Shown: piece after piece, positions 195 to 9,409 of the stretch
Numbering within the stretch: position 1 is the first letter of the stretch
How the letters are laid out: every line of letters starts with the position of its first letter
Source of the DNA: a virus
Virus genome (UHGV): UHGV-0216968
DNA: 9,409 nt
Strand: one strand, 5' to 3'
Position numbers and translations under genes: made by a program
Notes under the pieces: model-generated
Told to the model about the DNA's origin: nothing
Seen by the model: the letters and a program-made list of their open reading frames with translations, nothing else
Databases searched by the model: none

Positions 195-271
195 CGGCAC
201 GTAGCGCAGCCTGGTAGCGCACCGTCATGGGGTGTCGGGGGTCGGAGGTTCAAATCCTCTCGTGCCGACCA
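195..271 (+). tRNA. proL: tRNA-Pro (anticodon GGG)
   Basis: 77-nt cloverleaf: acceptor stem CGGCACG/CGTGCCG, D arm GCGC-AGCCTGGTA-GCGC, anticodon loop ATGGGGT, T arm GGAGG-TTCAAAT-CCTCT, encoded 3' CCA. Matches enterobacterial tRNA-Pro2 as I recall it. Confidence 0.85.
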
Positions 272-306
272 AATTGAATATCGGACAGCATCGGTAACCT
301 ATTGAA

Positions 307-480: not shown

Positions 481-1722
481 ATGGCACGAAAAACCACCCC
501 ACTAACCATTACGGAGATCAAAAACGCACGACCAGGGGAAAAGGAATACACCCTGCAGGATGGCGGAGGATTATTTCTTCTGGTGAAGCCCTCCGGATCA
601 AAAATATGGCGTTTTACGTACTACCGCCCGGCAGATAAAAAACGGACTATTATCAGCCTTGGATCGCTGAATGATGTTTCCCTGTCTGATGCCAGAGAGC
701 GACGGAATGAATACAGGTCACTAATAGCAAAGGGAACTGACCCACAGGACCATGAACGCCGGAAACGTGAAGCAGAGAGCCGGAAAAAGGGCAACACGTT
801 CGAAAAAGTTGCCTCGGACTGGTACGAGATGAAAAAAGGCCAGAATCTGGCTTACAACACGATTAAGGATATCTGGCGATCCCTGGAAAAATACGTATTC
901 CCGTACATCGGAAACACGCCAATAGATACCCTCACCGCTCGCCGCTTTGTTGAGATACTCACCCCCATTAAAGCACGCGGCAACCTGGAAACTCTGAAAC
1001 GCGTTTTGCAGCGCATCAATGAAGTGATGGATTTTGCCGCCAACAGTGGGCTGATTGACATCAACACCGCCGCGAACGTCCGCAAGGCATTCCCCTCACC
1101 CACCAAAAAGCACATGCCAACCATCCGACCGGAACAGCTACCGCAGCTAATGCACGATTTATCGGTCGCCAGCATAGAACGGCAAACCAGATTGCTGATT
1201 GAGTGGCAACTGCTGACCGTAGCACGCCCAGCCGAAGCAGCCGCCGCACGCTGGGAAGAAATAGATCTCGATGCCGAAACCTGGACGATTCCAGCCGGAC
1301 GCATGAAGATGCGCCGTGACCATGTGATCCCCCTTTGCGGTCAGGCTATGGCTGTACTGGAAACCATGAAGCCAATCAGCGCACACAGGGAACACGTTTT
1401 TCCCAGCCTTAAAAATCCGATGCTGCCAATGAGCAGCCAGACCGCTAACGCTGCATTACGCCGGATGGGTTACGCTGGTGTGCTGGTGTCTCACGGATTA
1501 CGCGCCATATTCAGCACAGCAGCGAACGAGGAAGGATTCGAACCGGACGTAATCGAGGCCGCACTCGCACACGTGGACACGAACGAGGTAAGGCGGGCAT
1601 ATAACCGAAGTAACTACCTGGAAAAGCGCGTGGTGCTTATGCGCTGGTGGGGTGAATTTGTGGAGGCTGCAGCTACCGGAGTGACCATAGCCAGCGGTAA
1701 AAGGGGTATCCGTGCCGTGTAG
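481..1722 (+). CDS. int: P4-family tyrosine integrase, 413 aa
   Basis: ATG at 481 preceded by an A-rich leader. The N-terminal region (LQDGGGLFLLVKPSGSKIWRFTYYR) is typical of the arm-binding domain of P4-like integrases. The C-terminal catalytic region carries RRDHVIPL, HGLRAIFST and RRAYNRSNY (putative catalytic Tyr). It lies immediately downstream of a tRNA gene. Confidence 0.93.
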   Translation: MARKTTPLTITEIKNARPGEKEYTLQDGGGLFLLVKPSGSKIWRFTYYRPADKKRTIISLGSLNDVSLSDARERRNEYRSLIAKGTDPQDHERRKREAESRKKGNTFEKVASDWYEMKKGQNLAYNTIKDIWRSLEKYVFPYIGNTPIDTLTARRFVEILTPIKARGNLETLKRVLQRINEVMDFAANSGLIDINTAANVRKAFPSPTKKHMPTIRPEQLPQLMHDLSVASIERQTRLLIEWQLLTVARPAEAAAARWEEIDLDAETWTIPAGRMKMRRDHVIPLCGQAMAVLETMKPISAHREHVFPSLKNPMLPMSSQTANAALRRMGYAGVLVSHGLRAIFSTAANEEGFEPDVIEAALAHVDTNEVRRAYNRSNYLEKRVVLMRWWGEFVEAAATGVTIASGKRGIRAV

Positions 1723-2221: not shown

Positions 2222-2428
2222 GTGGAAACAATCAGAAAAATACTTACCCGTCAGGAAGTAAAAAATATTCTGCGCATCAAGGCAGACAGTTCGCTACAGG
2301 ACATGATCAACGCCGGAAAATTCCCGAAAGGCTTCAAAATCGGTCTGCGTCGTGTTGGCTGGTATGAAGATGAAGTGCTGGCCTGGCTGAAAGAGCGCGA
2401 GGAAGAAGCGCGCGGAACGGCTGCGTAA
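2222..2428 (+). CDS. alpA: AlpA-family (MerR-like HTH) regulator/excisionase-like protein, 68 aa
   Basis: GTG start at 2222 with GAGG at 2208-2211. Translation METIRKILTRQEVKNILRIKADSSLQDMINAGKFPKGFKIGLRRVGWYEDEVLAWL has the characteristic AlpA pattern (R-VGW-E-EV-AWL). Position directly after int is typical for Gram-negative PICI/P4-like islands. Confidence 0.85.
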   Translation: METIRKILTRQEVKNILRIKADSSLQDMINAGKFPKGFKIGLRRVGWYEDEVLAWLKEREEEARGTAA

Positions 2429-2578
2429 TGGTGTGAGGCGTAACGCGATGAACATAACAAAAAGCGCCCCGTTGCCGGAGCGCCCTTGCGAACAATTAAC
2501 CTGCTGCGAAAAAAATGGATCAGTGCAGGGGAATTATATCAACCGTGTGGCGAAGCGCCACAATTGCCGGATAACGGG

Positions 2579-2607
2579 CAAAACAAAGGCGACCGGGGGC
2601 GGTCGCC
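2579..2607 (-). terminator. rho-independent terminator on the minus strand
   Basis: Perfect 8-bp inverted repeat GGCGACCG-ggg-CGGTCGCC (2588-2607). On the minus strand it is followed by UUUGUUUUG (plus-strand 2579-2587). Lies about 68 bp downstream of the minus-strand small ORF. Confidence 0.45.
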
Positions 2608-2674
2608 AATGGATATACACTAAACTTGAACGCATCACCAACAATGCCACATTTGCGGCTGGTGGGCAATGTGA

Positions 2675-2854
2675 TCAGTCAGATTTGGTTCGTTCCAAGG
2701 TTTGCAACGAGAGCTTTTTCCTGTGCTCTTTAAGGAATTTCTCAAGAGCAAACGAACAAGGTGCGAATCTTTCTGATTCATGTTCATGCGCTATATTTTT
2801 GCGTCGTCTCTTACGAGTTGGCGATGGTGTTTTGGTTGATTCTGTGTCGCTCAT
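2675..2854 (-). CDS. hypothetical small basic protein, 59 aa (MSDTESTKTPSPTRKRRRKNIAHEHESERFAPCSFALEKFLKEHRKKLSLQTLERTKSD)
   Basis: Hand-translated minus-strand ORF, below the size cut-off of the supplied ORF track. ATG at 2854-2852 with AGGA 7 nt upstream, TGA at 2677-2675. Sits 57 bp downstream of the RHH gene on the same strand and before a minus-strand terminator. No family recognised. Confidence 0.3.
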   Translation of the reverse strand: MSDTESTKTPSPTRKRRRKNIAHEHESERFAPCSFALEKFLKEHRKKLSLQTLERTKSD

Positions 2855-2911
2855 GGTGCTGTCCTGTAAAGCAATGCGCCTGCGTTCCTCAAACTATGGC
2901 GCTGATAGTGG

Positions 2912-3217
2912 CTATTCCTGCTCTTTGACCTTGCGTCGCTGGAGTTCTTCACGCGCGACGGTGACGAGTTGCCCGATCTCCTCGGCGGCTTTGACTCCGA
3001 TTTTTTCCACCTGCGCTAGGGCATCGAGCGAAGAAACCAGGAGGTTTTCTCCGCTTCCTTCTGCCTGGCGGCGGGCGATTTCACCGCGCATGGCGGTTAC
3101 TATGAATCCGGCGTTGCTTTCACCGTCCAGTTTTACGGATTCCATGCCTTCAATAACATCATGCGGGATCCGAGCTGTCAGTGATTGTGATTTTGCGTTT
3201 TTTGAACCTGTAGCCAT
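2912..3217 (-). CDS. ribbon-helix-helix-type DNA-binding protein, candidate island regulator, 101 aa
   Basis: ATG at 3217-3215 with GAGAGG about 7 nt upstream. The ORF-track start at 3232 is a TTG that contains this Shine-Dalgarno. N-terminal SLTARIPHDVIEGMESVKL fits the strand-helix pattern of Arc/CopG/MetJ RHH domains. Transcribed divergently from the downstream operon. Confidence 0.6.
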   Translation of the reverse strand: MATGSKNAKSQSLTARIPHDVIEGMESVKLDGESNAGFIVTAMRGEIARRQAEGSGENLLVSSLDALAQVEKIGVKAAEEIGQLVTVAREELQRRKVKEQE

Positions 3218-3238
3218 CTGTAATCCTCTCAATGAAAG

Positions 3239-3315
3239 TGTAAGACAATATACACATAAAAAGTCTTACATAAAAGCATTGACATGTAAGCCACCTATAA
3301 ATAAAGTTACTTACA
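3239..3315. promoter_or_regulatory. divergent promoter/operator region
   Basis: Rightward promoter TTGACA (3279-3284), 17 bp, TAAAGT (3302-3307). Leftward -10 candidate TATATT on the minus strand (3247-3252). Four copies of TGTAAG/CTTACA (3239-3244, 3265-3270, 3285-3290, 3310-3315) including the inverted repeat TGTAAGAC (3239-3246) / GTCTTACA (3263-3270). Hairpin CACCTTG-ttaatg-CAAGGTG at 3314-3333 in the rightward leader. Confidence 0.45.
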
Positions 3316-3413
3316 CCTTGTTAATGCAAGGTGCAGAAACGACGAAACCCCGCACTGTAGGAGCAGTAACGGGGCTTCTAACCACCAACGATAGCAAGAT
3401 TATCGAGGTAGCT

Positions 3414-3620
3414 ATGTTAAATCATACCACACACCCGCAAGGGCGGGACTCGCACAACCTGAATAAATACATCTGGCGTTTTATCGCCCTGAGCACGGCA
3501 CAACCGCGCGTGATTCACATCGTGGCCACCAGCGAACAGGAAGCCCGTCAACAATCACCGGCTGGCTGCGTGATGGTATTCGCCGCCCGTATTCGTCAGG
3601 AGGTGCACCATGTGCAATAA
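3414..3620 (+). CDS. hypothetical small protein, 68 aa
   Basis: ATG at 3414 with GAGG at 3405-3408. It is the C-terminal part of the implausible 395-aa track ORF. First gene after the rightward promoter and its stop overlaps the next start. Product unknown. Confidence 0.4.
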   Translation: MLNHTTHPQGRDSHNLNKYIWRFIALSTAQPRVIHIVATSEQEARQQSPAGCVMVFAARIRQEVHHVQ

Positions 3621-3846
3621 CACCTGTCCGGACGCAGCCGCCGAAGCTATCAAAACACTGATTGATGCGCTGATTGATATTTCTGTTATCGCGGACAGGG
3701 CGCATAAGCACGCTACCAGTGAAACAGAATATGCCGGGGCTTTCGTTCCTCACTCACTGGCTGTTATGCAATTTAGTGCTGATATGGCGCTGAATGAGGC
3801 AGGCAAAATTCTTACCGCAGATATTCAGGGGGCGCACCATGCATGA
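3610..3846 (+). CDS. hypothetical protein, 78 aa
   Basis: ATG at 3610 preceded by AGGAGG (3597-3602). Start overlaps the upstream stop (ATGTGCAATAA), indicating translational coupling. Confidence 0.5.
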   Translation: MCNNTCPDAAAEAIKTLIDALIDISVIADRAHKHATSETEYAGAFVPHSLAVMQFSADMALNEAGKILTADIQGAHHA

Positions 3847-4066
3847 TGACCGTTATTTTAAATCAATGAGCCATGCAGAAAATGCGCTGACTAACAGTGA
3901 ATGCTTGCGGCAAATATTGCTTATCTGGCTTGATGGTTTAAGTGATGCGCCGGAAGATGAACGTGAATCTAATCTTGCTGGTGCGTTTATTTCATTACTC
4001 GACACAGTAATCGTCGAATTAAATAAAGCGATCGAAATTCACGATAAAAAAATAAACGCGGAATAA
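3839..4066 (+). CDS. hypothetical protein, 75 aa
   Basis: ATG at 3839 with AGGGGG at 3825-3830, overlapping the upstream stop (ATGCATGA). The track ORF starts at an in-frame ATG at 3794 that has no Shine-Dalgarno and a 53-nt overlap. Confidence 0.45.
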   Translation: MHDDRYFKSMSHAENALTNSECLRQILLIWLDGLSDAPEDERESNLAGAFISLLDTVIVELNKAIEIHDKKINAE

Positions 4067-4071
4067 AAACC

Positions 4072-4371
4072 ATGAAACAGAAAATTTCTGGCTTTACTGC
4101 CAGCGGCCTCCCTCGGCCTGAAATCTGCCCCGGCGATATTTACCGGGATAAATACGGCAGCACGGTAATGATTAAAGGTGTTGCCGGACGGTGCGTTACT
4201 TACCGCCGTGAAGGTTATGAATATGACTGCGTGATGCCTGTTTATCAGTTCCGGCGTGATTTTTCTCTGGTACAGAACGCAACACGCGGTAAGCCCACCA
4301 GTTGGGAAAAAGCACGGGAAAATATTAAGAAAATAAAAAGCATGCTCAGCGCATCCAGAGGTAAAAAATGA
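4072..4371 (+). CDS. hypothetical protein, 99 aa
   Basis: ATG at 4072. Its stop overlaps the start of the replication gene (ATGA at 4368-4371). Basic C-terminus. No recognisable family. Confidence 0.5.
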   Translation: MKQKISGFTASGLPRPEICPGDIYRDKYGSTVMIKGVAGRCVTYRREGYEYDCVMPVYQFRRDFSLVQNATRGKPTSWEKARENIKKIKSMLSASRGKK

Positions 4372-5774
4372 AACTGGCACCGAACGTAAAACTGTTACCG
4401 AAAGATAAACACACTGAGGCGGTTATTTTTGCGGGTGATAATGCTCACTCCTTTGCAGAACATTACATGATTGCACAGGCCAAAAAAGCAGGCGATCCCA
4501 TCCCTCCGGTTTACCTGGGCCGTTATCAGTTAAGCGAACTGGACAATTTACAGATTGTTGATGAAGGACGATACAGAGCAAAGGTCATACGCGCCGGAAA
4601 CCTGGACGATATGCAGATGCTGACCATTGCCACCAAACTGGCGATCGCAGGTGTCCGGGAAGCGCGGTTACTTTCAGAGAATTTCGAACTACTGGAAGAC
4701 TGGAGCGAGCAACTACCGCGCCTTAAAGAAACCTGGGAACGTGGGGAAAGCCTGGTCATGAATGGTGGAAAGCGAAAAATCACACTTCCCATCTCATGGG
4801 GTTCTGAGGGATTCGACGCGCAGCAAAGCTACGTAATTAAGGGGCTTATTCCGGCTGAATCATTATGCAGCACCTACGGGGCCAGCGGCTCTTATAAATC
4901 GTTCCTGGCTATTTCCTGGTCGTGCCATGTTGCCACAGGTATGGCATGGGGAGGCCGCAGGGTCAGTAAGGGCGCGGTTATCTATATAGCTGGTGAAGGC
5001 AGCATGGGCGTAAAACGCCGCGTTAAGGCGTGGGAGATAACCCACGACAAGGTGGTTACAGATTTGTGCATCATTAACGCGCCTGTTTTCCCTGCATCGC
5101 CTGACTATGTGGAGCAGGTTATCAGAACTGCCGGACTTGTTAAGAGCAGAACGGGCGAAAATGTGCGGCTGATTGTGATAGACACGCTGGCCCGTTGCTT
5201 TGGTGGGAATGATGAAAATGATTCCCGTGATATGGGCGCATTTATCCAGGGGTGTGACGCGATAAAGCAGGCCACAGGGGCCACGGTGCTGGTGGTTCAC
5301 CATTCCGGCAAGGATGAAACAAAGGGGGCGCGTGGTTCCAGCGCATTCCGTGCCGCACTGGATGCAGAGTACCGAATCAGCCGGGAAAATTCAGACGTTA
5401 CAGCACTGGTGGCGGCGTGTACGAAGATGAAGGACGCAGAGGAGCCAAAAGAAAGCGCATACGACCTTAAAAGCGTGGAGGTGTTTACCGATACAGATGG
5501 CGAAGAGATTGTGTCCATGGTGGTGATTGACGTTCCCCGCGCCCCTGCTGAACTGGAACGCATCGAGGAGGCCGGGAACAAGACGGAAAATCACACGGCT
5601 TTATGGGGTTGTATCCGGTCACGTATACAGCATGGTGATAAATGCACGATCCCGCTGCTACGTGATGACATGAAAAAGCTGGGATATGACACAAAACACC
5701 TTAAACGATGGTTAGCCAAACTGGAAAAAGACGGCGTGATTTGCGTCGATGGGGATGATGTTCACCCACTGTAA
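4368..5774 (+). CDS. replication protein: RecA-superfamily RepA/DnaB-like ATPase, 468 aa
   Basis: ATG at 4368 with AGAGG at 4357-4361. Contains a P-loop-like YGASGSYKS, Walker B-like RLIVIDTL and a VLVVHHSGKD motif characteristic of RepA-type replicative helicases. The C-terminal ~60 aa look like a small DNA-binding domain. Iterons follow immediately downstream. Confidence 0.85.
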   Translation: MKLAPNVKLLPKDKHTEAVIFAGDNAHSFAEHYMIAQAKKAGDPIPPVYLGRYQLSELDNLQIVDEGRYRAKVIRAGNLDDMQMLTIATKLAIAGVREARLLSENFELLEDWSEQLPRLKETWERGESLVMNGGKRKITLPISWGSEGFDAQQSYVIKGLIPAESLCSTYGASGSYKSFLAISWSCHVATGMAWGGRRVSKGAVIYIAGEGSMGVKRRVKAWEITHDKVVTDLCIINAPVFPASPDYVEQVIRTAGLVKSRTGENVRLIVIDTLARCFGGNDENDSRDMGAFIQGCDAIKQATGATVLVVHHSGKDETKGARGSSAFRAALDAEYRISRENSDVTALVAACTKMKDAEEPKESAYDLKSVEVFTDTDGEEIVSMVVIDVPRAPAELERIEEAGNKTENHTALWGCIRSRIQHGDKCTIPLLRDDMKKLGYDTKHLKRWLAKLEKDGVICVDGDDVHPL

Positions 5775-5973
5775 AAAGTGGGCGTTAAAAGTGGGAATAG
5801 TGGGTAATTTAACTGGAATTTAACAAAATCGCCCACTTTCCCACATGTATACATCCCAAAAAGTGGGCACTAAAAAAATTCTTATGAAACAGTACGATAT
5901 AAAACCACAAAATCCCAGGTGGGACGAAGTGGGAAACCATGAAAAGTGGGTAGAAAAAGTGGGCACAGGTGGG
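5765..5973. repeat. iteron cluster, putative origin of replication
   Basis: At least 12 copies of GTGGG (consensus about AAGTGGG): plus-strand at 5778, 5791, 5800, 5863, 5919, 5929, 5946, 5959 and 5969, inverted at 5765-5769, 5832-5836 and 5840-5844. They flank an AT-rich stretch at about 5868-5915. Confidence 0.6.
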
Positions 5974-5976
5974 CGC

Positions 5977-6228
5977 ATGACCAGAAAAACCAGAGATAAG
6001 ACAGCACCAAAATATCGCGCATTAGACATGACAGAGCACGCCTTAAAGGTGGCAATCAGAACGATAGACCGCCACGCCGGAGAAGGATACGCGAAAGCAC
6101 ATCCCGAACTGATAAGCGCATTCATGACCACGACGGCGGCAAATTTTGCCACGCTGACAGAGCGGGAGATTGCCGAAGCGGAACAGGTAACAACAATCAA
6201 CGTTAAAACCGGAGAGGTGGAATCATGA
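5977..6228 (+). CDS. hypothetical protein, 83 aa
   Basis: ATG at 5977 preferred over the track start at 5845, because 5845-5976 is occupied by the iterons. Stop overlaps the SSB start (ATGA at 6225-6228). Confidence 0.4.
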   Translation: MTRKTRDKTAPKYRALDMTEHALKVAIRTIDRHAGEGYAKAHPELISAFMTTTAANFATLTEREIAEAEQVTTINVKTGEVES

Positions 6229-6647
6229 CAGCACAGATAGCGGCTTACGGGCGGCTGGTGGCTGACCCGCAGTTAAAGACCACCAGCAAAGGGACACAAA
6301 TGGCGATGGCGAGTATGGCGGTTCCCCTGCCGTGCAGCCAGGCAGATGACGGAACGGCGACGATGTGGTTATCTGTCCTGGCGTTTGGCAGACAGGCCGA
6401 CGCACTGGCAAAACACCACAAAGGCGAACTCCTGAGCGTGGCGGGTAACATGCAGGTGAGCCAGTGGACAGGCCAGAACGGCGAAACGCGGCAGGGCTGG
6501 CAGGTTATCGCAGACAGTGTAATCAGTGCCAGAACGGCGCGACCGGGCGGCAAAAAAGGTCAACAGGGCCAGGCCACTGACGCACTGAACAGGGCAAAAC
6601 AACAGTCAGGGAATGATGATCCGTACAGGGATGACATACCGTTTTAA
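6225..6647 (+). CDS. ssb: single-stranded DNA-binding protein, 140 aa
   Basis: GGAGAGGTGG (6211-6220) precedes the ATG at 6225. OB-fold-like N-terminal region (AYGRLVADPQLKTTSKG..., WLSVLAFGRQADAL...). Gly/Gln-rich linker and a C-terminal acidic tail DDPYRDDIPF, ending in the DDIPF-type motif that is the hallmark of bacterial and phage SSBs. Confidence 0.8.
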   Translation: MTAQIAAYGRLVADPQLKTTSKGTQMAMASMAVPLPCSQADDGTATMWLSVLAFGRQADALAKHHKGELLSVAGNMQVSQWTGQNGETRQGWQVIADSVISARTARPGGKKGQQGQATDALNRAKQQSGNDDPYRDDIPF

Positions 6648-6655
6648 GCAACGAG

Positions 6656-6687
6656 TGACAGAAGCCGGAGCAATCCGGCTTCTGTCA
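6656..6687 (+). other. very stable hairpin, possible terminator or attenuator between replication and capsid modules
   Basis: Perfect 14-bp stem TGACAGAAGCCGGA (6656-6669) / TCCGGCTTCTGTCA (6674-6687) with loop GCAA, 9 nt after the SSB stop. No U-tract follows. A second imperfect hairpin at 6717-6734 is preceded by A8 (6709-6716), so it is terminator-like on the minus strand. Confidence 0.4.
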
Positions 6688-6828
6688 GTTGAGTCCGTCA
6701 CACCACGCAAAAAAAAGGCCGGAATGTTCCGACCCCTTCATCACCAAAGAGAATAATTTATGTCTTTGAACTTGTAACGCTGCACAGAATGACACGTAAC
6801 GCCGGATAAATAAACGAAGATTGAAACT

Positions 6829-6858
6829 TTGCACACTATTGCATAGCAATGCATAAAG
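6829..6858. promoter_or_regulatory. phased TTGCA(C/T) repeats upstream of the capsid gene, candidate late promoter/activator site
   Basis: TTGCAC (6829-6834), TTGCAT (6839-6844) and ATGCAT (6849-6854) at exact 10-bp spacing, including the inverted repeat TGCAT-agca-ATGCA (6840-6853). Located about 65 bp upstream of the capsid gene start in an AT-rich intergenic region. Confidence 0.3.
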
Positions 6859-6919
6859 ATGCCGAACAAGGCTGATGATAAGATTAACGCGACACTTTTA
6901 CTAAGTATTAAGAGGTTGT

Positions 6920-7960
6920 ATGAGTGATTTATATTCGCCAGCTATGTTAATACAGGTTGTTAATGCCGAAGATATTCAATGGCAGATTAATTCTTTATTT
7001 ATAAACCTTTTTTTTAAGCGAGTCGTTACATTTGAGACGCGGGATATTGCGCTTGATATTATTGACGATCCAGACATCCCGATGGCTGCATTTTGTTCCC
7101 CTATGGTTGGTAGCAAAGTCTCACGCGATGAAGGCTACGAATCGAAAGTAATTCGTCCTGGCTACATGAAGCCAAAAAGTAGTATCGATCCAAATAAAAT
7201 AGCCGTTCGTCAACCAGGCGTATCACCGGAACAATTCAATGCATATTCATCACGCAGTTTCAAAATAAAGCGAGCGTTAGTAAGACAAGCGCAGGCAATT
7301 CGTGCGCGTATTGAGTGGCTTGCTGTTCAGGCGGTTACAACGGGGAAAAATATCATTGAAGGCGATGGAATTGAACGTTATGAACTGGACTGGAATATAA
7401 AACCACAAAATATTATCACGCAGTCCGGCGGTACGGAGTGGAGCGGTAGAGATTTATCAACATTTGATCCAAACGATGACATCGAAGAGTACGCAGAAAT
7501 CAGCGAAGGTACTACAAATATCATCGTAATGGGCCGCAACGTATGGAAAAAATACCGCGCCTTTAAAGCAGTAAAAGATTGCCTTGATACTCGACGGGGA
7601 TCTAATTCCGTTCTTGAAACGGCCCTGAAAAATCTTGGGGATTCTGTAAGCTTCAAGGGTTACGTTGGCGATGTTGCTATTGTGGTATATAGCGGACGTT
7701 ATACCGACGAGGACGGAACTGAAAGATATTTCCTTGATCCTGATTTGATGGTGCTTGGCAACACATCATTACAGGGCATCGTTGCCTACGGTGGCATTCA
7801 GGATCCTGAGTTAATCAGAATGGGGCTTACTAAAGCCGAACTTGCGCCGAAAAATTACATCGTACCAGGTGATCCGGCTATTGAGTACGTACAAACGCAC
7901 TCTGCACCACAGCCAATACCGGCCCGCATCAATCGTTTTGTTACCGTTCGCATTGGTTAA
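6920..7960 (+). CDS. major capsid protein, lambda gpE family, 346 aa
   Basis: AGAGG at 6911-6915 precedes the ATG. Blocks shared with lambda gpE as I recall it: NIITQSGGTEWSGRD, FDPNDDIEEYA, NIIVMG, FKAVKDCLDTRRGSNSVLETA, GDVAIVVYSG, MVLGNT, GDPA. Length is close to lambda E (341 aa). Confidence 0.92.
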   Translation: MSDLYSPAMLIQVVNAEDIQWQINSLFINLFFKRVVTFETRDIALDIIDDPDIPMAAFCSPMVGSKVSRDEGYESKVIRPGYMKPKSSIDPNKIAVRQPGVSPEQFNAYSSRSFKIKRALVRQAQAIRARIEWLAVQAVTTGKNIIEGDGIERYELDWNIKPQNIITQSGGTEWSGRDLSTFDPNDDIEEYAEISEGTTNIIVMGRNVWKKYRAFKAVKDCLDTRRGSNSVLETALKNLGDSVSFKGYVGDVAIVVYSGRYTDEDGTERYFLDPDLMVLGNTSLQGIVAYGGIQDPELIRMGLTKAELAPKNYIVPGDPAIEYVQTHSAPQPIPARINRFVTVRIG

Positions 7961-7969
7961 GGGGGAGCA

Positions 7970-8311
7970 ATGGCTACTCATTACACTGAACTCATGGCTG
8001 GCACTGAAGCACTGGTTACTACGTTGGGGATATTTTCAGCTAATAAAGGGGTAATTCCTGCATTTACGCCACTGATGCAAGAAGATGCAACTGGTGCACT
8101 GGTGGTATGGGATGGAACGAGCGCAGGCAAAGCTGTTTATGTTTCCGCTGTACAAATCGATACAGCGACAAAAACGCAGGCTCAGGTTTATAAAACCGGC
8201 GTCTTAAATGTTGATGCTCTGAACTGGCCTGAATCTGTAACACAACTATCAGCAAAAGTTGCTGCGTTTGTTGGCTCAGGTATTTCTGTTCAGCCGCTGG
8301 CACGTGTGTGA
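7970..8311 (+). CDS. head decoration protein, lambda gpD family, 113 aa
   Basis: Strong Shine-Dalgarno AAGGGGGAG before the ATG at 7970. Matches lambda gpD blocks: THY, TPLM, VVWDGT, YKTG...WPE, AAF.G.GIS. Size is close to lambda D (110 aa). Confidence 0.85.
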   Translation: MATHYTELMAGTEALVTTLGIFSANKGVIPAFTPLMQEDATGALVVWDGTSAGKAVYVSAVQIDTATKTQAQVYKTGVLNVDALNWPESVTQLSAKVAAFVGSGISVQPLARV

Positions 8312-8320
8312 GGTACGAGA

Positions 8321-8665
8321 ATGATTGAAAGAGATAGTCAGCTACGAGAGCTATTAGATATCGATGATAAAATGCGCTTAAGCGAGCGTCTTGTCGATAT
8401 GGATCAGGTAGTGGAGCTTACAACCCTTAGCCGTCGCACATTGCTAAACCTTGAGGCTCGCGGAGAGTTCCCCGAACGCGTACAGGTTACGAAAGGCCGC
8501 AAGGCATGGTATTTAAGCGAAGTTGTTGCGTGGATTAACAACATTCCGCGCGCATCAAATTATTGCCTTGTTCCCACCCCCGAAAAACCTGATGCGGCGT
8601 TATGCCTCAAGATTGAACGCGCCAGGCGTAATGCCCTGAAAGGGCGCAATAAGTTGATTGGTTGA
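8321..8665 (+). CDS. second AlpA/excisionase-like HTH protein, 114 aa
   Basis: GAGGT at 8311-8315 precedes the ATG. Central region VVELTTLSRRTLLNLEARGEFPERVQVTKGRKAWYLSEVVAWI is a MerR/AlpA-type HTH. Stop lies 26 bp before the cosQ-like sequence. Confidence 0.7.
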   Translation: MIERDSQLRELLDIDDKMRLSERLVDMDQVVELTTLSRRTLLNLEARGEFPERVQVTKGRKAWYLSEVVAWINNIPRASNYCLVPTPEKPDAALCLKIERARRNALKGRNKLIG

Positions 8666-8691
8666 TGAAATTAGGGCCCGTTCTGGCTGGC

Positions 8692-8756
8692 GGGTCCTTT
8701 CCGGCGATCCGGCAGGCTACGGGGCGGCGACCTCGCGGGTTTTCGCTATTTATGAG
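8692..8756 (+). other. lambda-type cohesive end site (cosQ-like, cosN, proximal cosB)
   Basis: GGGCGGCGACCT at 8722-8733 equals the lambda 12-nt cohesive end. Upstream CGGGTCCTTTCCGGCGATCCGGCAGGCTACG matches the lambda right end with 3 substitutions. Downstream CGCGGGTTTTCGCTATTTATGA matches lambda left-end nt 13-34. Comparison is from memory of the lambda sequence. Confidence 0.8.
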
Positions 8757-8866
8757 CCTTTTTCGGGTGCTGGTGGTGGTTTTGTTGTTCGCTCTATCTC
8801 TATGAATAAAAAGGAAAAGATAAAGCCAATACACCAACCTGAAACATTACTTAAGTGGGGATATTG

Positions 8867-9409
8867 ATGAAATCGCACCTGATGAACAAAAAAAACATGG
8901 CGCAAAGCTGCCGTGTAAGTGCGACAGCGTTCGACAAGTGGGGAGTGACTCCCGTTGAACGTAAAGGCCGCGAGGCGTTTTATGATGTTGCCAGCGTAAT
9001 AGACAATCGGGTTAGCAATGCAATTAACCAGATTACAGACGACAAAGGCGAGATTGATGATGATGAACTCCTACGAGTCAGGATCAGATTGCTGACAGCA
9101 CAGGCAGAGGCGCAGGAGCTTAAAAACGAGCGCGAACGCGGCGACGTTATTGATACAGCGTTTTGTATATACGTGCTTTCAAAATTGGCGAGTCAGATTT
9201 CTTCAATCATGGACAGCCTGCCGCTTGCCATGACAAGGAAGTTTCCCGACATGAAGCCGTCTATGCTGGATGGACTGAAAAAAGAAGTTATCAGAGCCTG
9301 TAACGCATGCGCAAAACTTGACGAAAACATACCGCTGATGCTGTCCGATTATCTGATGGAAACTGCCGGAAACGTACCGGATAAGTTGCAGCCGAATAAA
9401 GATAAGTAA
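8867..9409 (+). CDS. terminase small subunit, lambda Nu1 family, 180 aa
   Basis: ATG at 8867; alternative starts are GTG 8855 and ATG 8882. The N-terminus (MNKKNMAQSCRVSATAFDKWG...FYDVASVIDNR) parallels the Nu1 winged HTH (MEVNKKQLADIFGASIRTIQNWQ...LYDSAAVIKWY). The C-terminal half is strongly Nu1-like (RLLTAQAEAQELKNERERGDVIDTAFCIYVLSKLASQISSIMDSLPLAMTRKFPDMK). Stop falls at the window end. Confidence 0.88.
   Translation: MKSHLMNKKNMAQSCRVSATAFDKWGVTPVERKGREAFYDVASVIDNRVSNAINQITDDKGEIDDDELLRVRIRLLTAQAEAQELKNERERGDVIDTAFCIYVLSKLASQISSIMDSLPLAMTRKFPDMKPSMLDGLKKEVIRACNACAKLDENIPLMLSDYLMETAGNVPDKLQPNKDK

What the first reader, a model, noticed from the sequence alone, without database searches (positions are those of the whole stretch)
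6920..9409. tRNA-integrated satellite-type island carries its own lambda-like capsid shell and packaging genes in a non-lambda order
A P4-type int, alpA, RepA-like helicase, iteron origin and SSB (the hallmarks of a phage satellite/PICI) are followed by homologues of lambda E (major capsid), D (decoration) and Nu1 (small terminase) plus a cos site. The order here is E-D-HTH-cos-Nu1. In lambda the order is cos-Nu1-A-W-B-C-Nu3-D-E, so E and D sit upstream of cos and are inverted relative to each other. No portal, protease or scaffold gene lies between them. A satellite that supplies only the shell proteins and the packaging-specificity subunit while borrowing portal, protease, large terminase and tail from a lambdoid helper would be an unusual hijacking strategy, possibly a way to build smaller capsids. 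Alternatively, this is the start of a complete capsid module that continues beyond the window.
Basis: partly seen in the sequence, partly recalled or inferred. Interest (0 to 1): 0.85.

Follow-up and report, generated by a model that had tools for sequence, protein, structure and literature searches.

The report
Classical E. coli phage satellite (PICI)
The region is the packaging end of a well-known kind of small phage parasite (a phage-inducible chromosomal island) that rides lambda-like phages; its capsid-like, decoration-like and small-terminase-like genes and its cos site are all real, but this layout is the standard, already catalogued one and not a new hijacking strategy.

Summary
Window 6920-9409 encodes a lambda-E-family capsid homolog, a D-family decoration homolog, an AlpA-like HTH protein, a cos site (34/34 nt identical to lambda's left end) and a full-length Nu1-family small terminase. 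In near-identical relatives the island ends about 1.1 kb past the window, after one 93-aa ORF and attR. It has no portal, protease, scaffold or TerL, so it is neither a capsid-forming PICI nor a prophage. It is a classical Gram-negative PICI at proL/yejM. The order int, alpA, rep, capsid homolog, terS is the published core PICI layout. EcCICFT073 (c1499/c1500) and the reference island EcCIATCC25922 (TerS 81% identical) have the same order. [quoted passage not shown] What is less explored is that this subtype carries a full-length TerS where EcCICFT073 has Rpp. That TerS has an N15-like DNA-binding domain and a satellite-specific C-terminal half. Some copies sit inside prophages whose own Nu1/A are 99% lambda. 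All four module genes are under purifying selection. Novelty is low. Two residual questions are the role of E/D and whether this TerS bypasses the helper's TerS.

The parts
195..273 (+). tRNA-Pro(GGG) proL (195-271) with the attL core (about 253-273)
   Evidence: ARAGORN and Rfam. K-12 positions 2270-2290 are duplicated at both island ends in L019, L001 and L008.
481..1722 (+). P4-family tyrosine integrase
   Evidence: Pfam Phage_integrase, Phage_int_M and Arm-DNA-bind_3; phrog_1.
2222..2428 (+). AlpA regulator/excisionase
   Evidence: Pfam Phage_AlpA, E 4.5e-8.
2912..3232 (-). YlcI/YnfO family gene, in the variable early zone
   Evidence: NCBIfam NF041551, E 5.5e-20.
3339..3620 (+). Icd-like domain at the end of a 395-codon open frame (2433-3620)
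   Evidence: NCBIfam NF033153, E 1.2e-19; ORF list.
4072..4371 (+). DUF4222 protein
   Evidence: Pfam PF13973, E 2e-24.
4368..5774 (+). RepA-type (AAA_25) replicative helicase/initiator
   Evidence: Pfam AAA_25, E 7e-43; phrog_2850; RefSeq name 'helicase RepA family' in L011.
5773..5968 (.). Replication origin with AAAGTGGG iterons in direct and inverted copies
   Evidence: the repeat finder families D1 and D3, inverted pairs I1, I3 and I4. The position immediately 3' of rep matches published PICI origins (PMC6092414).
5977..6228 (+). Conserved 83-aa hypothetical protein
   Evidence: phrog_1231 matches residues 45-127 of the longer ORF. Called as 83 aa in relatives.
6225..6647 (+). Single-strand DNA-binding protein
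   Evidence: Pfam SSB; phrog_44.
6656..6687 (.). Perfect 14-bp inverted repeat after ssb, ahead of the AT-rich spacer 6688-6919 that precedes the late module
   Evidence: the repeat finder pair I2; sequence; GC 0.39-0.44.
6920..7960 (+). Lambda-E-family (HK97-fold) major capsid protein homolog, PICI lineage
   Evidence: Pfam Phage_cap_E 142 bits. Identity: 42% to lambda gpE, 40% to N15 gp8, 55% to c1499. c1499 matches PDB chain 3BQW over all 351 residues at 801 bits. dN/dS 0.095.
7970..8311 (+). Lambda-D/SHP-family head decoration protein homolog
   Evidence: Pfam HDPD 60 bits. Best PDB hit 1TD0, a head decoration protein; lambda gpD chains also hit. 41% identical to gpD. dN/dS 0.053.
8321..8665 (+). 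Second AlpA-like winged-HTH protein (114 aa), function unknown, in an interchangeable slot
   Evidence: Pfam Phage_AlpA; phrog_2790, E 1e-37; PDB 8C3T AlpA family. No hit in 50,697 phage records. Replaced by a homolog of the EcCICFT073 137-aa protein in 28 of 78 related loci. dN/dS 0.135.
8690..8866 (+). cos site: cosQ-side flank 8692-8721, cosN 8722-8733, lambda-identical stretch to 8755, then island-specific cosB 8756-8866
   Evidence: 34/34 match to lambda's left end with 0 of 200 shuffles matching. Left flank 27/30 to lambda's right end. About 92% identity to lambdoid phages over query positions 51-127 only. cosB is 87-88% conserved in other TerS-type islands and unlike lambda, phage 21 or EcCICFT073 cos1.
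8867..9409 (+). Full-length Nu1-family small terminase (180 aa; alternative GTG start at 8855)
   Evidence: Pfam Phage_Nu1 85.7 bits; phrog_57, E 3e-51. 38% identical to lambda Nu1 over residues 6-167 against 3-181; 47.6% to N15 gp1. No similarity to RppA. Per-domain identities. dN/dS 0.174.

Best explanation
The window holds about nine tenths of a classical Gram-negative phage-inducible chromosomal island (PICI). It is integrated at the proL tRNA-Pro gene between yejM/lapC and yejO. Positions 6920-9409 are its late or packaging zone.

Shown by sequence:
- The island has its own integrase, AlpA, helicase/iteron replicon and SSB.
- These are followed by capsid (E-family) and decoration (D-family) homologs, an AlpA-like HTH gene, a cos site and a full-length Nu1-family small terminase.
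- The cos site has cosN and flanks identical or nearly identical to lambda's, but its cosB is island-specific.
- In relatives the element ends about 1.1 kb further on, after one 93-aa ORF. It has no portal, protease, scaffold, TerL, tail or lysis genes.
- Natural neighbours of this module include prophages with essentially lambda's own Nu1, A, B, C, D and E.

Inferred mechanism:
- A lambda-like helper induces AlpA-dependent excision.
- The island replicates into concatemers with a cos site about every 10 kb.
- The island TerS binds the island cosB through its N15-like winged-helix domain.
- Through its Nu1-like central and C-terminal domains it brings the helper's TerL (gpA) to the lambda-identical cosN.
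- Island DNA is then cut and packaged into helper-built heads, probably as multimers. Four units of about 10.4 kb would fill a lambda head.
- This would be the cos-phage counterpart of the SaPI TerS strategy, and an alternative to the Rpp adaptor used by EcCICFT073.

The roles of the E and D homologs remain unknown. They are maintained by selection. By analogy with EcCICFT073 they are not needed for transfer or interference under laboratory conditions.
For: Identity as a PICI:
- Gene content and order match the five-component PICI core of PMC10085698, EcCICFT073 and EcCIATCC25922.

Boundaries:
- The empty K-12 site and the duplicated att core define islands of 9.8-11 kb that end after the 93-aa ORF.
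- The same holds in 74 of 80 IMG/VR loci, and a lambda-A-type TerL never follows this TerS.

cos site.

TerS:
- It aligns with Nu1 through the C-terminal TerL-binding region. Murialdo and Feiss place that region in the last ~40 residues and note that Rpp lacks it.
- The DNA-binding domain is 54% identical to that of N15 gp1. N15's cosB has only an R3 element, and its cosB shares a TTGTTGTT motif with the window's.
- cosB is 87-88% conserved among TerS-type islands.

Helper type:
- Flanking head genes are a median 93-98% identical to lambda's in 24 of 80 loci.
- In L025 the host prophage's Nu1 and A are 99% lambda, while the embedded island's TerS is 100% identical to the window's.

Functional maintenance: dN/dS is 0.05-0.17 for all four module genes.
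Against: - No experiment exists for this TerS-type module. Direct recruitment of gpA is inferred from alignment only.
- The C-terminal half is only 47-49% identical to lambda and N15 TerS, which are 78% identical to each other, and it carries a ~12-aa extension. It may therefore bind something else, or bind the helper's TerS.
- In EcCICFT073 the helper's TerS was essential. The same could be true here.
- The window's own right end was not seen. No locus matches the whole window.
- The cosB motif shared with N15 is short and could be chance.
- dS exceeds 1 for E and HTH, so those dN/dS ratios are approximate.
Confidence: 0.9

Rival explanations
1. The Nu1-like protein does not act as a stand-alone small terminase. 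It acts as an Rpp-like modifier. It would co-assemble with the helper's Nu1 through the conserved central oligomerisation region, retarget the mixed complex to the island cosB and poison packaging of helper DNA. The helper's TerS would then remain essential.
For: - It occupies the same position relative to cos as rppA in EcCICFT073.
- The central region (AQAxAQELKN...TAFC...LS) is the best conserved part against phage TerS.
- In EcCICFT073 the helper's TerS is required and Rpp forms heteromers with it.
- These islands live with helpers that express lambda Nu1.
Against: - It has no detectable sequence similarity to RppA, and no PDB hit to RppC.
- Unlike Rpp it keeps a region aligned to the TerL-binding C-terminus of Nu1.
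- Rpp contacts TerS through the DNA-binding domain and a different dimerisation surface.
Confidence: 0.3
2. The island's E and D proteins, together with the helper's portal, protease and scaffold, would build satellite-specific or chimeric and possibly smaller shells that favour island DNA.
For: - E and D are full-length and under strong purifying selection (dN/dS 0.095 and 0.053).
- They form an old lineage only 34-46% identical to the co-resident helper's lambda-type E and D.
- E-D is present in 74 of 78 related loci.
- Capsid homologs redirect capsid size in SaPIbov5, and this is suspected in PmCI172.
Against: - In EcCICFT073, deleting c1499 or c1500 changed neither transfer nor interference.
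- All packaged DNA was phage-sized with lambda as helper.
- Four related islands keep the TerS but lack E-D.
- There are no structural or virion-composition data for this lineage.
Confidence: 0.15
3. The module is the start of a complete capsid-forming PICI or of an ordinary lambdoid prophage head region that continues beyond the window.
For: - The window ends exactly at the stop codon of the Nu1-like gene, so its own continuation is unseen.
- In lambda, terL follows nu1 directly.
Against: - Every relative examined has a 93-aa ORF and then attR or chromosomal genes after the TerS (L001, L005-L012, L019, L103 and 74 of 80 IMG/VR loci).
- None has a lambda-A-type TerL gene there.
- Where lambda head genes are nearby, they belong to a separate prophage that the island interrupts. 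They are 96-100% lambda, while the island's E and D are 34-46% identical to them.
Confidence: 0.02
4. The E, D and Nu1 homologs are decaying remnants of a captured helper late-gene cluster, or a recently captured backup copy for islands that interrupt the helper's E gene. They would have no function of their own.
For: - PMC10111431 proposes capture of late-gene clusters and a backup role.
- No phenotype was found for c1499 or c1500.
Against: - The reading frames are intact in hundreds of genomes. The identical E protein is indexed in 204 collection blocks, and 264 of 5,426 complete E. coli genomes carry at least 80% of the module.
- dN/dS is 0.05-0.17.
- Identity to the co-resident helper's copies is only 34-46%.
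- No phage TerS exceeds 48% identity.
Confidence: 0.05

Closest known systems
EcCICFT073, the prototype classical E. coli PICI (Fillol-Salom 2018, PMC6092414; 2019, PMC6739421)
   Same: - The backbone matches: integrase, alpA, Icd/YlcI zone, DUF4222, replication gene, ori and SSB.
- The late zone has the same order: capsid homolog (c1499, 55% identical), decoration homolog (c1500), one small gene, a lambda-type cos, a packaging-specificity gene, and a 93-aa ORF before the island end.
- It has lambda-like helpers, and its cosN/cosQ are conserved while cosB is private.
   Different: - The packaging-specificity gene there is RppA (144 aa), which has only a TerS-like DNA-binding domain and no TerL-binding tail. 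Here it is a full-length 180-aa Nu1 homolog with no similarity to RppA.
- The gene before cos is a 137-aa hypothetical there and an AlpA-like HTH protein here.
- It uses a different att site (ycfD-phoQ) and a primase-type replication gene.
- EcCICFT073 has a second, inverted cos.
EcCIATCC25922, and other reference PICIs at the yejM/proL site (Table S1 of PMC6092414)
   Same: - It uses the same tRNA-Pro/yejM attachment site and the same integrase family.
- Its late zone is capsid, decoration, small gene, cos, a 180-aa Nu1-type TerS (81% identical) and a 93-aa ORF.
   Different: - The slot before cos holds the 137-aa protein instead of the AlpA-like HTH protein.
- It has a primase instead of a RepA-type helicase.
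- It has a second inverted cosN after terS.
- It is catalogued but, as far as the searched literature shows, its TerS has not been studied functionally.
Helper-embedded PICIs (11capE type; Tommasini et al. 2023, PMC10111431)
   Same: Locus L006 carries a module 99.6% identical to window 3358-9409. It is inserted in the E gene of a lambda-like prophage. Other relatives sit in B or between W and B.
   Different: - The window's copy is chromosomal, at a tRNA gene, with a different integrase.
- The paper describes 11capE as lacking terS. The islands found here carry a Nu1-family gene.
Capsid-forming PICIs (EcCIEDL933; Alqurainy et al., bioRxiv 2022.09.08.507074)
   Same: They share the integrase/alpA/replication backbone, and they are satellites that encode capsid-related and terminase-related proteins.
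   Different: cf-PICIs encode a full head and packaging set: HK97-type capsid, protease, portal, connectors, HNH, TerS and TerL. They steal only tails. This island has none of portal, protease, connectors or TerL.
pac-type SaPIs with their own TerS (SaPI1/SaPIbov1), and SaPIbov5 with its capsid homolog Ccm
   Same: The logic is the same: a satellite-encoded small terminase redirects the helper's TerL to satellite DNA, and a satellite-encoded homolog of the helper's major capsid protein is present.
   Different: - They are Gram-positive and unrelated in sequence.
- SaPI TerS works in headful (pac) packaging, not cos packaging.
- Ccm demonstrably makes small capsids. No such effect is known for the E. 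coli E homologs.
Phage lambda and N15 terminase small subunits and cos sites
   Same: - It belongs to the Nu1 family over the full length.
- cosN and the next 22 nt are identical to lambda's.
- The DNA-binding domain is closest to N15 gp1 (54%), whose cosB is reduced to an R3 element.
   Different: - No terL gene follows it.
- The C-terminal half is a satellite-specific lineage with a ~12-aa extension. It is 47-49% identical to phage versions, which are 78% identical to each other.
- The cosB sequence is private to the islands.

Membership tests
Classical Gram-negative PICI | Integrase at one end, next to a specific att site | tested here: met
   Integrase at 481-1722. attL core at the 3' end of tRNA-Pro, about 253-273, with a matching attR in relatives.
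Classical Gram-negative PICI | AlpA-type regulator downstream of int, co-oriented with the rest of the island | tested here: met
   alpA at 2222-2428, Pfam Phage_AlpA.
Classical Gram-negative PICI | Own replication module (primase or helicase initiator) followed by an iteron origin | tested here: met
   AAA_25/RepA-type helicase at 4368-5774. AAAGTGGG iterons at 5773-5968.
Classical Gram-negative PICI | Capsid-morphogenesis homolog and small-terminase homolog downstream of the replication module (SatelliteFinder core components iv and v) | tested here: met
   E homolog at 6920-7960 and Nu1 homolog at 8867-9409. Component list in PMC10085698.
Classical Gram-negative PICI | Size of about 8-15 kb with no portal, TerL, tail or lysis genes | tested here: met
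   Relatives with 97-99.6% identical modules are 9.8-11 kb between att cores and carry no such genes. The window itself stops about 1.1 kb short of attR, so this rests on relatives.
Classical Gram-negative PICI | Helper-phage-dependent excision, replication, packaging and high-frequency transfer, with interference against the helper | not testable with these tools
   Needs induction and transfer experiments. The only indirect support is co-residence with, and insertion into, lambda-like prophages.
Capsid-forming PICI (cf-PICI) | Own TerL, portal, prohead protease and head-tail connector genes | tested here: not met
   None are present in the window or downstream in any relative. No lambda A-, B- or C-like genes belonging to the island itself were found in 80 loci.
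Rpp-type cos PICI (EcCICFT073 subfamily) | Encodes an Rpp protein (144-153 aa; TerS-like DNA-binding domain plus its own dimerisation helices; no TerL-binding tail) | tested here: not met
   No alignment to RppA at E <= 100. No PDB sequence hit to RppC even at E <= 10. The protein is 180 aa and aligns with Nu1 to its C-terminus.
Rpp-type cos PICI (EcCICFT073 subfamily) | Lambda-type cosQ/cosN with a non-lambda cosB, placed just upstream of the specificity gene | tested here: met
   The cosB sequence differs from EcCICFT073 cos1.
Lambda Nu1-family small terminase (Pfam PF07471) | Profile match above the curated cutoff and full-length collinearity with Nu1 | tested here: met
   85.7 bits against a cutoff of 30. 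Residues 6-167 align with Nu1 residues 3-181. 47.6% identity to N15 gp1 over 91% of the length.
Lambda Nu1-family small terminase (Pfam PF07471) | Functional partnership with an adjacent TerL (gpA) gene | tested here: not met
   No lambda-A-type terL gene follows it in any of about 95 loci examined. Partnership with a helper TerL in trans is inferred, not tested.
Lambda gpE-family major capsid protein (Pfam PF03864) | Profile match above the cutoff over the whole protein, and homology to solved gpE structures | tested here: met
   142 bits against 22.9, covering residues 14-343. PDB hits: 7VI9 (lambda gpE) at 1e-76 and 3BQW (matches c1499 over 351/351 residues) at 7e-122.
Lambda gpD/SHP head decoration protein (Pfam PF02924) | Profile match above the cutoff, and homology to solved decoration protein structures | tested here: met
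   60.2 bits against 29.1. PDB hits 1TD0 and 1C5E/7VII, both head/capsid decoration proteins.
Lambdoid prophage | Contiguous head, tail, lysis, immunity and replication genes within one att-bounded element | tested here: not met
   The 10-kb element is bounded by att cores and has no such genes. Where lambda genes are adjacent, they are interrupted by the island.
P4-like satellite | sid, psu and delta capsid-size and transactivation genes, and an alpha primase | tested here: not met
   No such families appear among the Pfam, PHROG and NCBIfam hits for the window's ORFs. Shared features are limited to a P4-family integrase, AlpA, an Icd-like domain and a cos site.

The most novel reading that the evidence does not exclude
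This PICI subtype may be a mechanistic intermediate between Rpp-type classical PICIs and capsid-forming PICIs.
- Its full-length TerS would be built from a satellite-specific C-terminal half joined to exchangeable DNA-binding domains, N15-like here and phage-21-like in L015/L016.
- That TerS would recruit lambda gpA directly, making packaging independent of the helper's Nu1.
- Its strongly conserved but deeply diverged E and D proteins would enter or replace the helper's shell, giving chimeric or differently sized heads, with cognate helpers under conditions not yet tested.
Probability: 0.12. Interest if true: 0.6.

Novelty: already known. Interest (0 to 1): 0.22.

Why it matters
As a discovery it matters little. 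The architecture has been published since 2018, it is used as the definition of PICIs by SatelliteFinder, and it occurs in roughly 5% of complete E. coli genomes.

It is useful in two ways:
- It corrects the impression that a satellite carrying 'shell plus packaging-specificity' genes is exceptional.
- It puts two real open questions into focus.

The first question is why these islands keep full-length lambda-E and lambda-D homologs under strong purifying selection when no phenotype has ever been found for them. The second is whether the TerS-type islands package independently of the helper's TerS, unlike the Rpp-type. The modular TerS, with a constant satellite-specific C-terminal half and swappable DNA-binding domains, together with islands embedded in prophages that carry lambda's own terminase, offers a tractable lambda-based system for testing both.

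Tried and rejected
- **Capsid-forming PICI.** This was my first guess. I rejected it once EC43, K-12 and other contexts showed the island ends one small ORF after terS.
- **Exact source of the window.** Look-ups of the exact capsid and integrase proteins gave many contigs, but none matches end to end. The best matches are L006 (99.6% over 3358-9409) and L019/L008 (about 97.6% over the left end). The island is a mosaic.
- **Exact repeat of the tRNA 3' end as attR.** None was found in L012. Comparison with the empty K-12 site solved this. The attR copy is damaged, as PMC10111431 reports for PICIs.
- **Co-variation of the gene before cos with the TerS type.** Rejected. The same TerS type is found with either the HTH gene (44 loci) or the 137-aa gene (28 loci).
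- **PDB sequence search for the Nu1-like protein.** No meaningful hit even at E <= 10. The solved Nu1 and Rpp fragments cover only DNA-binding domains that have diverged here.
- **A phage with the satellite-type TerS C-terminal half next to a terL gene.** None was found in 50,697 phage records (maximum 47.6% identity) or in IMG/VR.
- **A phage-21-like cos next to the L015/L016 TerS variant.** No cosN with two or fewer mismatches lies nearby. I did not pursue this.
- **Promoter and terminator scan of 5700-9409.** Counts were no higher than in shuffles, so it was uninformative.
- **Rfam scan.** Only the tRNA was found.
- **ED1a reference island.** It could not be fetched because it is not in the collection.

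Full report
**1. What is in the window**

The window begins in the 3' end of yejM/lapC (99.6% identical to K-12). A tRNA-Pro(GGG) gene lies at 195-271. A single co-oriented gene array follows:
- a P4-family integrase, 481-1722
- AlpA, 2222-2428
- a variable zone with an antisense YlcI/YnfO gene and an Icd-like domain
- DUF4222, 4072-4371
- an AAA_25/RepA-type helicase, 4368-5774
- AAAGTGGG iterons, 5773-5968
- a small conserved ORF
- SSB, 6225-6647

A perfect 14-bp inverted repeat and an AT-rich 230-bp spacer come next. Then comes the region of the finding.

**2.

| Feature | Coordinates | Evidence |
|---|---|---|
| E-family capsid protein | 6920-7960 | Pfam 142 bits against a cutoff of 22.9; 42% identical to gpE over the full length |
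| D-family decoration protein | 7970-8311 | Pfam 60 bits against 29.1; 41% identical to gpD |
| AlpA-like winged-HTH protein | 8321-8665 | Best PDB hit is an AlpA family protein, 8C3T |
| Nu1-family protein | 8867-9409 | Pfam 85.7 bits against 30; 38% identical to lambda Nu1 from residue 6 to 167, aligned to Nu1 residues 3-181 |

Between the last two genes lies a cos site.
- Positions 8722-8755 are identical to the first 34 nt of lambda, including the 12-nt cohesive end. None of 200 shuffles matched.
- 27 of the 30 nt to the left match lambda's right end.
- Similarity to lambdoid phages stops about 35 nt to the right of the cut. So cosQ and cosN are lambda-like and cosB is not.

E precedes D, the reverse of lambda, and nothing lies between them.

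**3. What lies beyond the window**

The window ends on the stop codon of the Nu1-like gene, so relatives had to answer this.
- The identical capsid protein is indexed in 204 blocks of the assembly collection.
- 264 of 5,426 complete E. coli genomes hold at least 80% of positions 6600-9409.
- The Nu1-like gene is followed by one 93-aa ORF and then by chromosomal genes in EC43 (L001), the ETEC isolate L6_E562 (L011), L007-L010, L012 and L019.
- Comparison with the empty K-12 site shows a 21-bp duplicated core, made of the last 19 nt of proL plus 2 nt. It bounds islands of 9.8-11 kb. The attR copy is damaged.
- A scan of IMG/VR with an alignment of these TerS proteins gave 80 loci. In 74 of them the next gene is the 93-aa ORF. 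In none is it a lambda-A-type TerL.

So the alternative that a complete capsid module continues past the window is refuted. So is my own first guess that this is a capsid-forming PICI.

**4. What it is**

It is a classical Gram-negative PICI. SatelliteFinder defines the PICI core as integrase, alpA-type regulator, primase-replicase, capsid-morphogenesis gene and small terminase, in that order, with no other structural or lysis genes (PMC10085698).

- EcCICFT073 has the same late zone. Its capsid homolog c1499 is 55% identical to the window's, and PDB chain 3BQW matches c1499 over all 351 residues. Then come the decoration homolog c1500, one small gene, cos1, the packaging-specificity gene, a 93-aa ORF and the island end.
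- EcCIATCC25922, a reference PICI listed in 2018 at this same yejM site, has capsid, decoration, a 137-aa gene, cos, a 180-aa TerS that is 81% identical to the window's, and the 93-aa ORF.
- Tommasini et al. report a major capsid gene in 21 of 29 reference Gram-negative PICIs.

**5. The helper**

- 24 of the 80 IMG/VR loci, and L006, are islands inserted into head genes of a prophage. Sites include B, E and between W and B.
- That prophage's B, C, D, E, FI and FII are a median 93-98% identical to lambda's.
- In L025 the prophage's own Nu1 and A are 99% identical to lambda's, while the embedded island's TerS is 100% identical to the window's.
- L006 is 99.6% identical to window 3358-9409.

These are the helper-embedded PICIs of PMC10111431. 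The natural helper therefore carries essentially lambda's terminase and head genes.

**6. What is specific to this subtype**

EcCICFT073 uses RppA (144 aa). RppA shares only a TerS-like DNA-binding domain with Nu1. It lacks a TerL-binding tail and needs the helper's TerS.

The window's protein has no similarity to RppA. It is collinear with Nu1 to its C-terminus. The closest phage protein is N15 gp1 at 47.6%, and no phage record exceeds that.

Per-domain identities:

| Comparison | N-terminal 55 residues | C-terminal half |
|---|---|---|
| Window vs N15 gp1 | 54% | 47% |
| Window vs lambda Nu1 | 34% | 49% |
| N15 gp1 vs lambda Nu1 | 30% | 78% |
| Window vs other island TerS proteins | 24-96% | 64-74% |

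- The 194-aa versions in L015 and L016 are 64% identical to the window in the C-terminal half. Their DNA-binding domain is phage-21-like, 69-73% identical to the CFT073 prophage TerS.
- The island versions also share a ~12-aa C-terminal extension that phage TerS lack.
- The window's cosB is 87-88% conserved in other TerS-type islands.
- That cosB differs from lambda's, phage 21's and EcCICFT073 cos1. It shares a TTGTTGTT element with N15's cosB, which is weak evidence.

The gene before cos is interchangeable. It is the AlpA-like HTH gene in 44 loci and the EcCICFT073-type 137-aa gene in 28. The HTH protein has no match in 50,697 phage records.

**7. Mechanism**

Shown:
- The parts list, the island boundaries and the helper type.
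- All four module genes are under purifying selection. dN/dS against L011 is 0.095 for E, 0.053 for D, 0.135 for HTH and 0.174 for TerS. dS is above 1 for E and HTH, so those ratios are approximate.
- The island's E and D are only 34-46% identical to the co-resident helper's copies. They are an old lineage, not a recent backup copy.

Inferred:
- After helper-triggered, AlpA-dependent excision and replication, the island TerS binds its private cosB.
- It delivers the helper's gpA to the lambda-identical cosN.
- Concatemers are cut and packaged into helper heads, probably as multimers. Four units of about 10.4 kb come to about 42 kb, which is within my recollection of lambda's packaging limits.

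The main rival for this step is an Rpp-like heteromer with the helper's Nu1.

For E and D I can offer no demonstrated role. In EcCICFT073, deleting either gene affected neither transfer nor interference. c1499 could be replaced by a marker with no phenotype. [quoted passage not shown] The small-capsid idea is therefore unsupported, though it is not excluded for other helpers.

**8. Verdict**

- The satellite interpretation is right.
- The claim of an unusual strategy is not right.
- I rate novelty as already known. The same module type is in the 2018 reference set, in SatelliteFinder's definition and in the helper-embedded PICI survey.

Two things remain interesting. One is the uncharacterised full-length, modular TerS in place of Rpp. 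The other is the long-standing lack of a function for the conserved E and D homologs.

**Caveats**

- The window's own right end was not seen.
- No locus matches the whole mosaic window.
- All mechanistic steps for this TerS are inferred from homology and context.

Noticed in passing
window 2433-3620 (+), overlapping 2912-3232 (-): This is a 395-codon stop-free frame. Only its last ~50 codons match a known family (Icd-like, NF033153). It runs antisense across a YlcI/YnfO gene. Gene callers-391-aa proteins here in relatives (L007, L010, L012, L017), and RefSeq annotates partial Icd-like pseudogenes here (L103, L104). An open frame this long is unlikely by chance and is unexplained.
   Followed up: partly
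L019 19590-19610; L001 17857-17877; L008 13930-13950: The attR copy of the proL 3' end is damaged and differs between strains (for example GAATACTCTCGTGCC...). The attL copy keeps an intact tRNA. This matches the attR damage that PMC10111431 reports for PICIs.
   Followed up: partly
L012-L019: The identical 413-aa integrase is linked to at least four different late modules: E-D-HTH-TerS (L012, L019), E-D-141aa-146aa Rpp-like (L018), a 638-aa ClpP-protease/capsid fusion (L013), and ProQ-PerC with a 194-aa Nu1-like protein but no E/D (L015, L016). L014 has the same integrase at a different chromosomal site.
   Followed up: partly
L015 19221-19805; L016 18788-19372: These 194-aa Nu1-like proteins combine a phage-21-like DNA-binding domain (69-73% identical to the CFT073 prophage TerS) with the satellite-type C-terminal half and extension. 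No lambda-type cosN with two or fewer mismatches lies within about 1.7 kb.
   Followed up: partly
L006 2935-3210 and 14127-14890: An island 99.6% identical to window 3358-9409 sits inside the E gene of a lambda-like prophage. It carries an extra Abi_C gene on the opposite strand (13180-13941) before attR. The interrupted prophage E gene also appears frameshifted in its 3' part.
   Followed up: partly
window 8662-8671 and 8864-8873: An exact 10-nt direct repeat, TTGATGAAAT, brackets the cos-containing spacer. One copy spans the stop codon of the HTH gene and the other spans the ATG of terS. It could be chance or a recombination joint for cassette exchange.
   Followed up: no
window 6656-6687: A perfect 14-bp inverted repeat (TGACAGAAGCCGGA/TCCGGCTTCTGTCA, 4-nt loop) lies 9 nt after the ssb stop codon. 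No T-run follows it. It precedes the AT-rich spacer upstream of the capsid gene. It may be a terminator, an RNA-processing site or a protein-binding site separating the replication and late modules.
   Followed up: no
L103 10301-10312 (+) and 11168-11179 (-); L004 7559 (+) and 8298 (-): EcCIATCC25922 and EcCICFT073 each carry a second, inverted cosN after the packaging-specificity gene. The closest relatives of the window (L005-L012, L019) have only the one exact cosN.
   Followed up: partly
window 5845-6228: The 127-aa ORF listed here overlaps the iteron origin. Homology (phrog_1231 matches residues 45-127) and gene calls in relatives indicate that the real gene is the 83-aa version starting at 5977.
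   Followed up: yes
L021 8184-9758; L104 7365-8939: The reference PICIs EcCI11128 and EcCI11368.1 sit at the same yejM site. They have a different late module in the opposite order: a 162-aa small terminase, then a 307-aa 'phage major capsid protein'. The terminase is only 15% identical to the window's.
   Followed up: no
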